DNA of 64,000 nucleotides from Eledone cirrhosa (Eukaryota): assembly GCA_964016885.1 (NCBI GenBank), contig OZ024746.1, forward strand, positions 74,772,001 to 74,836,000, written 5' to 3'. The position numbers and the translations under genes are program-made. A model generated the notes under the pieces. It ran no database searches. It was not told the origin of the DNA and was given only the letters and a program-made list of their open reading frames with translations. This document shows, in pieces, positions 29,206 through 32,257 of this stretch; the stretch's first letter is position 1; every line of letters begins with the position of its first letter.

Positions 29206-29247
<42 letters not shown>

Positions 29248-29287
29248 TTAAAACAATGAAATAAAAATTCAAGTCATTAGAAATATA

Positions 29288-29435
29288 CTTCACTGCTTTA
29301 CGATCGTTTCTAGGTGATAATAATACATCGTACGCATATTTCGTTAGCGATCTATGTAGGGTTAGTTACAAAATATCAGATAAGGAATATATTTACCTAC
29401 ATGTATATCATCAGCCGTTGTCAAAAGCAATGAAA
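29288..29435 (-). ncRNA. Type I hammerhead (U3-A8) with ~110-nt stem II
   Basis: tttcattgctt-TTGACAA-(long hairpin)-GAAA-cgatcg-TA-aagcagtgaag: 11-bp stem I and palindromic stem III. Confidence 0.75.
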
Positions 29436-29881
29436 ATTTTATTTAAAATCAATAGTAAATTGAGTTCTATGACCTTATTTGGAGGTAGCTGAAGAACAAA
29501 CCAATTAAATGGTATTTTGCCATATGATGTTAAGCTGAAATATAACTCACTTTAGTTGAGGTCATGACCCTTTGAAAGGAATGGTTGAATGGTGTTAAAA
29601 TAGAATTACTATAAAGAATCTATGAGGAAAGAGGGATTGTTATATTGATAGTGGAATGTAGATGGTGGAGTGAAGTTTAAAAAGGAAAGTAAAAATTAAA
29701 TATTGAGTTGTGTTGTATGGAATTTTGAGGTGAATATAAATAAGTAAATATAAAATATACAGAGATAACTAGGATAAATATAGATAGGTAAAGCAATGGT
29801 CATAACTAGGAAGGATAGTATATTAAAAGATGAAAATTATAATAAGATAATAAAATATAATAATATAATATAATGTAATAT

Positions 29882-30067
29882 AATTGTTTCTACTTTAGGC
29901 ACAAGGCCAGCAATTACCCAGTGCATTACTGGTACTTTATTTTATCGACCCCGTAAGGATGAAAGGCAAAGTCAACCTCGGCGGGATTTTAACTCAGATC
30001 GTAAAGGGACATAACTATGCTGGAAAGCATGGCGTCCGACCCTCTACCGGTACTGCCAATCCACCGC
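29882..30067 (-). mobile_element. SINE family A
   Basis: Near-consensus copy. Confidence 0.9.
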
Positions 30068-30686
30068 GTTAAATATAATGTAATATAATATAGTACAGTA
30101 TGGTACATTGTATATAGTATAATATAGCATATGATGCATCATAAAATACAAAATAGTAAATATTTTCAAGTGTTTCTATATATAAGTAATCAAACTCAGA
30201 TAAATGCATGTTGACATAGTCAAAACGCATAATTTTCTTAGATCACAAAAGTACATATATTCACATATATAGATAGAGGTATAATTACACTGATACTCCA
30301 TTAAAAACATACATATGCATACATAAATATAAACATATACACGTACATACACGCACACAGACATATATATATATATACACACTTATACGTATATATATAC
30401 ATGTACACATACATGTACATACACATACACACACACATAGACATATACACACAGATATACACATATATATATATTCTCTCACCATACATAGATACATATA
30501 TACCCATGCAATTACAGGTGGTTATGTACCTTGATGCCCTTAGTCAGTAACGCATGAATCTATGGAAGCTAAAAGATTAAAAGGTTAAAATATAAAAAAA
30601 TAAACAGGAAGGCGTATAATTAGGGGAAGGGGATATTAACAAATGGTACCTTACATAGAATTATAGTGAGTTGCTATTTAGAATGT

Positions 30687-32257
30687 TTAATTAGGTTTAT
30701 AGTACTTAAATGTTTTTCATATACGGTGATTACAAGCTATAATCAGTTCCTCTCTTTTATTCAATAAATCGTCCTTAGATTTAGTAATTTCCAAAATCTC
30801 CCCGGAACACAATCTGCATTCTCTCCTGTTCCCAATATATGGAGTTCTTTGCAGAATTGTATTCCACGATAACTTGAAATCTATTTTTTTTTCTTTTTAT
30901 AGTTATTTACTGCTTCAGCTAATGATGTAGTGTTAGCTAGTTTAGTATTGTTAAAACTACTAAAGTGTGCGTAATATCTTTTCTTAAATGTGTTCGATGT
31001 AGATCCTATATACGATTTGTTGGAGTCACTAGTGTACACAGTGCATTTATATATTACATTACTTTCATCCTAACGGGGTCGATAAAATAAAGTACCAGTA
31101 ATGCACTGGGTAATTGCTGGCCTTGTGCCTAAAGTAGAAACAATTATTAATCAAACAGTTGCCATTTAAGGGGCAAACGCTTCTATTTCTGCAATTACAA
31201 CCATACGTAACATGGTTGTTTTGGGTACCTGTATAATTCTCATTAATCATTGAGCTATTCTTATTGTAATTAATGTTAGCGAGAGAATGAATGCTGCTTT
31301 GTGGGTGATTTAGTGCTGGGGTTGTATTGTGATTTTGCGTTATGTTGTTTTTGTGTTGGTGATTTGGGTGGTTGTGTTTTCCAGGTTGAAGGATTGTATT
31401 ATTTGTCCTTTTAAAAAATGCAGTCTTATTTAAATTATGTTGTGGTGGTGTGGTCATATTTTTTTTTAAATTTATAAATGTTGTAGTTGATTATTTTTTG
31501 CTGGAGATTGTTTGATGTAGAGTATGAGAATTTAACAGTATACCTGTTAAATATTTGGTGGTATCTGTGGTTTGGTGGAAAATGTTTATGTAGAATTTCG
31601 AAGAATTTTGGGGGGATTTGTCCAATAGTTTGGAGGTTGAAGGGTGCGTTGTACCATGTTATGTTTCTTTTGCGGTTTTTAGTTAAGTTCTTATCTCCAC
31701 TTATATTAATGTGCTGTGTTCTAAAAGAGTTCTTATGGTTAGTTTTTGTATTTGTGGATTTTGGTAAATTGCAGTGGTTGTATTTGGTATTATTATTGGG
31801 TAGATTATGAGAGGTTGAATGTTTGGTAGTCATATGTGAGTTGTTAACATTGGTCATAGATCGTGTAGTAATAGTTGTTGTGGTTTTTCGGTTGTTTGGT
31901 GTGATAGGAATGACCCCATTAGGCATTTGATTCGATGGTATTTTTTAGTGTTTGAAGTTTTTGCTAGGTTTTGTAGTATGGTCCATAGTAATGTTGGGGA
32001 TATATGACATTTTTTCCTTATATCCACTTCTAGTTAGGGCCTCGTTGTAGAAGGGTGAATTTTTATAAAATATATCCTCATTGGAAGATAATTTAGAAAG
32101 TCTAAGAGATATGTTACATACTAAGTTTTGTAGTATAGAGCCAGGGTGGTTAGAGCGTGAATGTATATAGTGTAGATTCAGGTTGGATTTGTGGTAAGGT
32201 TGATAAATATTCGTAGAGAAGTCTAAGGTAATGTCAAGGAAGTTAGCTACTTTTGAG
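30687..32257 (-). mobile_element. Decayed Penelope-like element (Naiad-type): RT thumb, Cys linker and GIY-YIG endonuclease
   Basis: NFLDITLD..YIHSRSNHP; RKRNITWYNAPF..KHFPPNH..FNRYTVKFSYS; CNCRNRSVCPLNGNCL; NVIYKC..SYIGSTSNTFKKRYYAHFSSF..CRLC..E..LLNKREE..CNHR. Lesions near 31945, 31460 and 30890; SINE inserted at 31062. Confidence 0.88.
31062..31147 (+). mobile_element. 5'-truncated SINE A inserted in the Penelope ORF
   Basis: Nin-like domain plus tail, sitting between the CL and SNVIY codons. Confidence 0.85.

What the first reader, a model, noticed from the sequence alone, without database searches (positions are those of the whole stretch)
29245..32257. Candidate driver in the window: Naiad-type PLE with a co-oriented 3' hammerhead
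The decayed RT-thumb/GIY-YIG ORF on the minus strand is followed ~1.25 kb downstream by a same-strand hammerhead and then (TA)n. That hammerhead is homologous to the ORF-less fold-back at 49.4k (GAAACGATCGTA, shared stem II sequence), but its core is TTGACAA versus CTGAAGA, a compensatory U3-A8/C3-G8 switch. This links the mini-elements to PLEs and suggests selection on catalysis.
Basis: partly seen in the sequence, partly recalled or inferred. Interest (0 to 1): 0.75.

Follow-up and report, generated by a model that had tools for sequence, protein, structure and literature searches.

The report
Hydra retroelement with long-armed hammerhead
This is a broken copy of a known kind of animal jumping gene that ends in a predicted self-cutting RNA with an unusually long arm, and many relatives stop exactly at the start of that RNA motif, which likely marks where the element's transcript begins and suggests the uncut RNA is what gets copied.

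Summary
29246-32263 (-) is a 5'-truncated Penelope-like element of the Hydra clade (endonuclease after the RT; RWR, DKT, CxCx5C), not a Naiad. The hammerhead belongs to it: 30 of 39 RT-anchored copies carry it downstream. Its U3-A8 core is fixed in this lineage (A); sister lineages keep C3-G8; stems I and II covary. U3-A8 is already published for Schistosoma PLEs and here is one event. The 95-116-nt stem II is longer than in published Hydra hammerheads. The 49.4k fold-back is a truncated two-armed copy of a sister coding family (B), not an ORF-less mini-element. This scan already reported Hydra, U3-A8, the long stem II and paired ends on other DNA (e1-9560118, e1-8668198). Added here: 5' ends pile up just before the core (29 of 89 B arms, 17 at exactly -7; 14 of 89 A arms), not at the cleavage site. 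This likely marks the transcription start and makes the smallest fold-backs run-off copies of uncut element RNA. Cleavage and the start site are untested. New variant of a known kind.

The parts
29246..32263 (-). 5'-truncated copy of Hydra-clade PLE, family A (full unit about 4.1-4.4 kb)
   Evidence: collinear with 39 RT-anchored loci, homology stops at 32263 while relatives continue to a 5' pLTR
30687..32262 (-). decayed ORF remnant: RT thumb, Asn/Thr/His-rich spacers, CxCx5C linker, C-terminal GIY-YIG with CxxC and CxH
   Evidence: 51-65% identity to the intact 813-aa family B protein
31062..31147 (+). SINE 3' fragment inserted at the start of the GIY-YIG, private to this copy
   Evidence: absent from relatives, which jump 31143 to 31061
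29433..30686 (-). 3' UTR/pLTR with a microsatellite tract (30250-30502)
29880..30067 (-). SINE inserted at an (ATTAT)n hot spot of the UTR
29291..29432 (-). type I hammerhead motif: stem I, core U3-A8 (29424-29418), 107-nt stem II domain (29417-29311), palindromic stem III ACGATCGT, predicted cut after 29299
29431..29431 (-). position -7 from the core, where 5' ends of relatives pile up; inferred transcription start
   Evidence: function inferred
29196..29245 (.). (TA)n target at the short 3' end (+58 from the cleavage site)
32274..32480 (+). 3' end of another (TA)n-ending repeat joined head to head to the truncation point
   Evidence: family not identified
49262..49634 (-). long arm of a two-armed family B insertion (C3-G8 hammerhead with private substitutions; ends about +199)
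49635..50291 (+). short arm of the same insertion (ends about +64), interrupted by a SINE with an 18-nt duplication at 49706-49889 and a second repeat at 50004-50207

Best explanation
The region is a 5'-truncated, decayed copy of a Hydra-clade Penelope-like retrotransposon whose terminal repeat holds a predicted type I hammerhead, and its copies are likely made by an RT-endonuclease that cuts (TA)n and copies uncut element RNA from two fixed internal start points. Shown: domain order, linkage, core and stem conservation, two fixed 3' ends, and a pile-up of 5' ends 7 nt before the core. Inferred: (1) the pLTR promoter starts the RNA at that -7 A, so the hammerhead is the first 140 nt of the mRNA; (2) the protein binds behind a pLTR and both cut DNA ends prime at +58/64 and +194/201; (3) priming behind the 5' pLTR runs off the RNA 5' end and leaves 0.5-kb fold-backs that hold little but the hammerhead, while priming behind the 3' pLTR of a read-through RNA gives long or full copies such as this one and, cut shorter, the 49.4k fold-back; (4) the ribozyme is weak as a monomer and would cut as a dimer through the palindromic stem III or with the protein's help, later in the cycle or to remove the leader.
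For: Clade motifs; the best fold matches of the intact protein are telomerase RTs. Linkage: 30 of 39. HHR at both ends, identical in 5 of 5 B2 units compared. Core: 90 C3-G8, 7 U3-A8, 3 singles among the first 100 of 6,439 matches with the core left free, 0 in the reversed control; 97 of the first 100 of 14,272 keep A-GAAA and U16.1, N17 always A or U; lineage A 1,115 matches with A8 against 5 real copies with G8, while N7 changed between subfamilies. Stems: 92.6% of 598 cells paired, 33 double changes, slid controls 31-47%; proximal stem II 97.8% paired against 20-59% when slid, with different sequences in families A, B, C. Two ends: 19 of 19 two-armed family A loci have one short and one long end. 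5' ends: B 29 of 89 arms (20 insertions) in a 10-nt window, 0.9 expected; A 14 of 89, 1.4 expected; 1 of 89 B arms at the cleavage site. Both arms of a fold-back usually stop at the same template position. In vitro precedent for internal initiation, two start sites and use of unprocessed RNA: PMC11167929. An internal TATA-less pLTR promoter is shown for Penelope: PMC2377424.
Against: No RNA data and no cleavage assay. Position 10.1-11.1 is a C-A mismatch in 25 of 25 sequences, against the usual G-C. The hammerhead fold is 1.6-3.1 kcal/mol above the minimum-energy fold in 4 of 4. The 3-8 switch happened once; naive P for 9 of 9 fixed core positions across three families is 0.007 and ignores relatedness. 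The -7 site is an ATT, which the PAc endonuclease prefers, and is also a SINE hot spot (5 arms), so sequence alone may favour junctions there. An untemplated G expected from a cap is seen in only 6 of 22 informative B arms, some explained by the partner arm. In family A the peak is broad and 5 of 89 arms end within 5 nt of the cleavage site (1.5 expected, P 0.02 uncorrected, not sharp). The window's own two copies are not of the -7 class (49.4k arms stop near -50 to -60). All 180 arms are the first hits on contig C1 and favour young copies.
Confidence: 0.65

Rival explanations
1. The -7 pile-up is a junction artefact of sequence or structure: RT pausing or snap-back where the new cDNA can pair with its own stem I complement, A/T microhomology between arms, or re-cutting at ATT. 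It is not an RNA 5' end.
For: Many junctions are A/T palindromes; SINEs also insert at this ATTATT; cap-G evidence is weak; PAc EN cuts ATT (PMC11167929).
Against: 15 ATT sites lie between -130 and +140 of the core in the B2 reference and only -7 is hot; the much longer stem II should favour snap-back more but holds only scattered ends; arms flanked by (TA)n or unique DNA also stop there; no upstream remnant flanks these fold-backs.
Confidence: 0.25
2. The motif keeps the hammerhead fold for protein binding or promoter function and no longer cuts at a useful rate.
For: C-A at 10.1-11.1, 100-nt stem II that may not make the usual loop contact, sequence-fixed stem II tip, uncut RNA used as template; cleavage is dispensable in vitro for PAc.
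Against: The 3-8 pair is a tertiary pair of the active site and was kept by a double change; N7 and N17 vary as catalysis allows; U-U and C-A at this position occur in published PLE hammerheads.
Confidence: 0.2
3. The short fold-backs are a separate non-autonomous family (mini-element or retrozyme) that amplifies from its own RNA.
For: Fold-backs starting at -7 would keep a downstream promoter and could be re-copied; one locus has a 268-bp internal duplication (L174); retrozymes derive from pLTRs (bioRxiv 10.64898/2026.07.22.740005, abstract and introduction).
Against: Junctions differ from insertion to insertion and arms match several coding subfamilies; no head-to-tail arrays among 20 loci read; 11 of 29 relatives of the 49.4k arm lead to the EN.
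Confidence: 0.1
4. The element is a Naiad.
For: (TA)n targeting is shared, and Naiads exist in octopus.
Against: EN is C-terminal, DKT not DKA, no IFD, hammerhead present.
Confidence: 0.01

Closest known systems
Hydra clade of C-terminal EN+ PLEs, e.g. Hydra-1_Obim (Craig et al. 2021, PMC8557442)
   Same: Single RT-EN ORF, RWK-type and DKT motifs, CxCx5C linker, CxxC and CxH around E and N, (TA)n targets, 3' hammerhead, partial tandems, inverted truncated copies, one-sided tail.
   Different: A different family from Hydra-1_Obim (compared by eye). Units 4.1-7.1 kb against under 3 kb; about 100-aa low-complexity spacer after the thumb; tail about 136 nt against 30-40; stem II domain 95-116 nt against at most about 26 nt, and U3-A8 against C3-G8 in all 26 Hydra rows of File S2 (that set came from a canonical descriptor).
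U3-A8 hammerheads of Schistosoma Cercyon PLEs (Cervera and de la Pena 2014, PMC4209133) and natural core variants (Perreault 2011, PMC3088659)
   Same: Same 3-8 covariation, palindromic short stem III, dimer model.
   Different: Those are minimal motifs with a 7-8-bp helix II; here stem II is a rod of about 40 bp with a fixed C-A, C-C pattern at its base and a fixed tip.
Poseidon_Ac in vitro mechanism (Frangieh 2024, PMC11167929)
   Same: Two internal RT starts that define the tail; AT-rich targets; unprocessed RNA as template.
   Different: Different clade; the starts here lie in the 5' UTR, not the ORF; a genomic pile-up of 5' ends at the ribozyme boundary is not described in the parts read.
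Metazoan non-LTR retrozymes (PMC7229834; bioRxiv 10.64898/2026.07.22.740005)
   Same: Small, ORF-less, type I hammerhead, related to pLTRs.
   Different: Retrozymes are head-to-tail monomers; these are head-to-head arms that continue into coding elements.

Membership tests
Naiad | GIY-YIG N-terminal to the RT | tested here: not met
   RT motifs at aa 252-349, GIY-YIG at 692-709 of 813 in intact ORFs
Naiad | DKA motif | tested here: not met
   DKT at 115-117
Naiad | insertion in fingers (about 20 aa) | tested here: not met
   motif A to B span 66 aa against 67 in Hydra-1_Obim, counted by eye
Naiad | no canonical hammerhead | tested here: not met
   full core and three stems
Hydra PLE | C-terminal GIY-YIG | tested here: met
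   VY..YIG motif, R718, E777, N790; Pfam GIY-YIG only weak, 3 of 46 aligned proteins, none for the query
Hydra PLE | RWK and DKT motifs | tested here: met
   RWR and DKT in families A and B; K or R at that column in 42 of 46 homologues
Hydra PLE | CxCx5C linker; CxxC and CxH around E and N | tested here: met
   C673, C675, C681; C771, C774; C799, H801; also in the window copy
Hydra PLE | CCHH motif absent from the EN | tested here: inconclusive
   not seen by eye; no reference alignment of the motif was run
Hydra PLE | (TA)n insertion and 3' hammerhead | tested here: met
Hydra PLE | generally under 3 kb (descriptive, not diagnostic) | tested here: not met
   A about 4.1-4.4 kb; B2 6.2-7.1 kb
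Hydra PLE | groups with Hydra in an RT tree | not testable with these tools
   no labelled reference proteins were held; the 118 homologues are unnamed
Type I hammerhead | core U4 G5 A6 A9 G12 A13 A14, pair 3-8, A15.1-U16.1, H17 | tested here: met
Type I hammerhead | stems I-III around the core | tested here: met
Type I hammerhead | G10.1-C11.1 pair | tested here: not met
   C-A in 25 of 25; mismatches here are published
Type I hammerhead | self-cleavage and stem I/II tertiary contact | not testable with these tools
   needs an RNA assay
Non-LTR retrozyme | ORF-less head-to-tail monomers, one hammerhead each | tested here: not met
   49.4k is head to head; 11 of 29 relatives lead to the EN

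The most novel reading that the evidence does not exclude
In this Hydra lineage the hammerhead is the capped first 140 nt of the mRNA. Thousands of tiny fold-backs are genomic run-off records of that uncut 5' end, so the ribozyme does not make the template but acts as a protein- or dimer-gated switch between copying and leader removal, with the fixed tip of its 100-nt stem II as the protein's handle. PLEs would then make hammerhead mini-elements, the raw material of retrozymes, as a routine by-product.
Probability: 0.4. Interest if true: 0.7.

Novelty: new variant of a known kind. Interest (0 to 1): 0.45.

Why it matters
What PLE hammerheads do is stated as unclear in PMC8557442. This lineage offers natural intact ORFs with identical ribozymes at both ends, a natural C3-G8/U3-A8 pair on one scaffold, and a genomic read-out (where copies start and stop) of which RNA is copied in vivo. 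If the -7 peak is the start site, it supports in a living germ line the in vitro result that uncut RNA is the template, and explains how ORF-less hammerhead repeats arise. It also shows that at least 14,000 hammerhead half-motifs in this genome belong to a form with a stem II too long for the descriptors and Rfam models tried. The window copy itself is an ordinary dead fragment.

Tried and rejected
Rfam: no hammerhead among listed matches. The repeat finder was swamped by microsatellites. Pfam: nothing for the window frames or the intact protein; PDB sequence search gave only a weak retron RT, E 0.0065. A nested hammerhead using the CTGATGA at 29414 was rejected: no stem I partner, and it is paired in stem II. 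An amplified U3-G8 or C3-A8 intermediate was not found: 5 single copies among 9 matches, 4 being chance. A SINE-carrying subfamily was rejected: lengths, duplications and the two arms of one insertion differ. A 268-bp tandem mini-element suggested was a nested fold-back. Cap-derived G: inconclusive. The twin-hairpin signal of earlier notes was not tested. No labelled PLE tree was built. A MAFFT alignment misplaces the middle of stem II between families, so that part was scored by anchoring on the core. Four SINE-interrupted B arms that first looked like -7 ends were removed by realignment; one arm per family did not align and was dropped (89 of 90).

Full report
Observation. The minus strand of 32262-30687 encodes broken pieces of an RT thumb, a cysteine linker and a GIY-YIG domain. 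1,263 nt after the stop is a type I hammerhead layout with core TTGACAA, then about 55 nt and (TA)n. It is homologous to the 49.4k fold-back (score 108; 0 of 1000 shuffles as high). The exact GAAACGATCGTA is in the fold-back's right arm (50216); the left arm has one change. The window is G000:C6:74772001-74836000 in a 3-Gb genome, octopus-like by earlier notes; I did not test the species.

I took the 39 best non-self hits of the RT-thumb segment (of 303 candidates, 40 scored) and fetched 10 kb each. 30 of 39 have the whole hammerhead downstream on the same strand within 4.2 kb; 3 more break off in or just before it, and 6 end or are interrupted earlier. Eight copies reach a 5' pLTR, seven with the hammerhead, 287 nt before the start codon in L075. 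So 29246-30686 is the 3' UTR/pLTR.

Clade. Family A frames and intact 813-aa ORFs of the sister subfamily B2 (L130, L131, L133, L134) show RWR, DKT, RT core, thumb, CxCx5C, GIY-YIG, CxxC and CxH in that order. These are the Hydra features of PMC8557442 section 11; Naiads have the EN first, DKA, an IFD and no canonical hammerhead (passages). By eye the protein follows Hydra-1_Obim motif for motif but is another family (supplement passages). A model of the B2 protein (pLDDT 83.6) matches telomerase RTs best. No labelled tree could be built.

The 49.4k element. Its 40 best hits are 96-99% identical. Of 29 non-window loci, 11 have the EN C-terminus on the same strand within 1.5 kb upstream, and nearly all continue into a shared UTR. 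It is a two-armed, 5'-truncated insertion of coding family B, with a long end (about +199), a short end (about +64) and two later insertions.

The ribozyme motif. With the seven core positions left free, 6,439 places match (0 in the control); of the first 100, 90 are C3-G8, 7 U3-A8, 3 singles (counted by eye). The 3' half matches 14,272 places (2 in the control); 97 of the first 100 are intact and N17 is A or U. In lineage A, 1,115 places have A8; 9 have G8, of which 5 are real copies. N7 is A in about 57 and C in about 38 of the first 100. For 25 hand-picked representatives of families A, B and C, 92.6% of cells pair and the 3-8 pair is C-G 16, U-A 9; 0 of 500 shuffles reach this, though that control ignores relatedness and two of its five measures are not exceeded. 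Proximal stem II pairs at 97.8% with different letters per family, around fixed C-A and mostly C-C mismatches; cross-family pairing falls to 44-80%. Five of six folds score z below -2.8, the sixth -2.2. Stem III is an 8-nt palindrome (duplex -10 kcal/mol), as in dimer-type animal hammerheads (PMC4209133, parts 1-2 of 4). U3-A8 is published there and in PMC3088659 (passages). The stem II domain is 95-116 nt; the 26 Hydra rows of File S2 have at most about 26 nt and all C3-G8 (part 2 of 59 of the supplement). Structure under selection is well supported; selection on catalysis is likely but rests on one switch, probably derived in A.

Ends. 19 of 19 two-armed family A loci have one end at +57/58 and one at +175 to +194 from the cleavage site; family B uses +57-67 and +196-201 or +292. 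This fits the two internal RT starts of Poseidon_Ac (PMC11167929, parts 1-2 of 4 and passages) and repeats earlier notes of this scan. For 5' ends I anchored downstream of the cleavage site and took the first 90 of 13,487 B hits and the first 90 of 1,851 A hits, all on C1. 29 of 89 B arms (20 insertions) end 0-9 nt before the core, 17 at exactly -7, where 0.9 are expected; 1 ends at the cleavage site. In A, 14 of 89 end there (1.4 expected) and 5 near the cleavage site (1.5 expected; scattered). The -7 base is the A of TC-ATT, like the arthropod initiator TCAKT (recalled, not from a call). Penelope has an internal TATA-less pLTR promoter (PMC2377424, passages) and its hammerhead starts at the end of the 5' intron. 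The simplest reading is run-off at the 5' end of uncut RNA. Scaled up, this would be roughly 4,000 arms; that is an extrapolation from one chromosome end. Against it: the site is an ATT and a SINE hot spot, and a cap-derived G is seen in only 6 of 22 arms.

Mechanism and rivals are set out in their sections. Shown: anatomy, linkage, covariation, end positions. Inferred: start site, priming by both DNA ends, dimer or protein-assisted cleavage.

Literature. Searches listed no paper on octopus Hydra hammerheads with a long stem II or on a 5'-end peak at the ribozyme boundary; the library lacks most subscription papers, and I read only the parts named. Also seen: bioRxiv 10.64898/2026.07.22.740005 (part 1 of 5; supplements closed, may list such families), PMC7229834, PMC6155905 and PMC13282606 (passages). 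Work on dimer-cleaving PLE hammerhead variants by Lunse and colleagues is recalled only.

Verdict. A real but dead fragment of a known clade, mislabelled Naiad; a precedented core variant on an unusual long-stem scaffold; and one testable addition on which RNA is copied. New variant of a known kind, interest 0.45.

Noticed in passing
window 29880-30067 and L061-L099: SINE hot spot: 18 of 43 family A arms carry the same SINE at one (ATTAT)n site of the UTR, all in one orientation, with different lengths and duplications; the two arms of one insertion often differ, so these are independent insertions. A second hot spot is stem I of family B (window 49706; 5 arms).
   Followed up: partly
L130-L134, L137, L146: Young B2 units of 6.2-7.1 kb with intact or nearly intact ORFs carry 3.5-4.1 kb 3' UTRs that are 41-51% alternating purine-pyrimidine repeats and are copied with the element (L131 vs L133 98.7% over 4,052 aligned bases): a possible vehicle for microsatellite spread.
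   Followed up: partly
window 29330-29385 (-), alignment A1 columns 61-104: The tip of stem II (TGAT..TTTGTA / TACATAGATC) is almost fixed in sequence across families A, B and C while the stem below it is rewritten; possible protein or promoter site.
   Followed up: no
window 32274-32480 (+): 3' end of a different (TA)n-ending repeat (690 candidates) joined head to head to the element's truncation point with about 10 filler bases; could be a second arm copied from another RNA, or a chance neighbour.
   Followed up: partly
L175, L177, L193 junctions: Fold-back junctions hold two or three short repeats of the arm's own first 10-13 bases, like RT slippage at a template end.
   Followed up: no
B2 protein aa 479-574; family A equivalents: About 100-aa Asn/Thr/His/Lys-rich, low-confidence spacer between thumb and linker, absent from Hydra-1_Obim.
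   Followed up: no
window 32625-32990: A long inverted repeat between (TA)n tracts next to the element; not examined.
   Followed up: no
window 14926-17267 (+): A LINE-type RT remnant in two frames.
   Followed up: no
L143:3949-5211 (-), L136:960-1784 (+): Other PLE-type RT/GIY-YIG frames of a different clade near the fetched loci; short-stem canonical hammerheads in L151 and L164.
   Followed up: no
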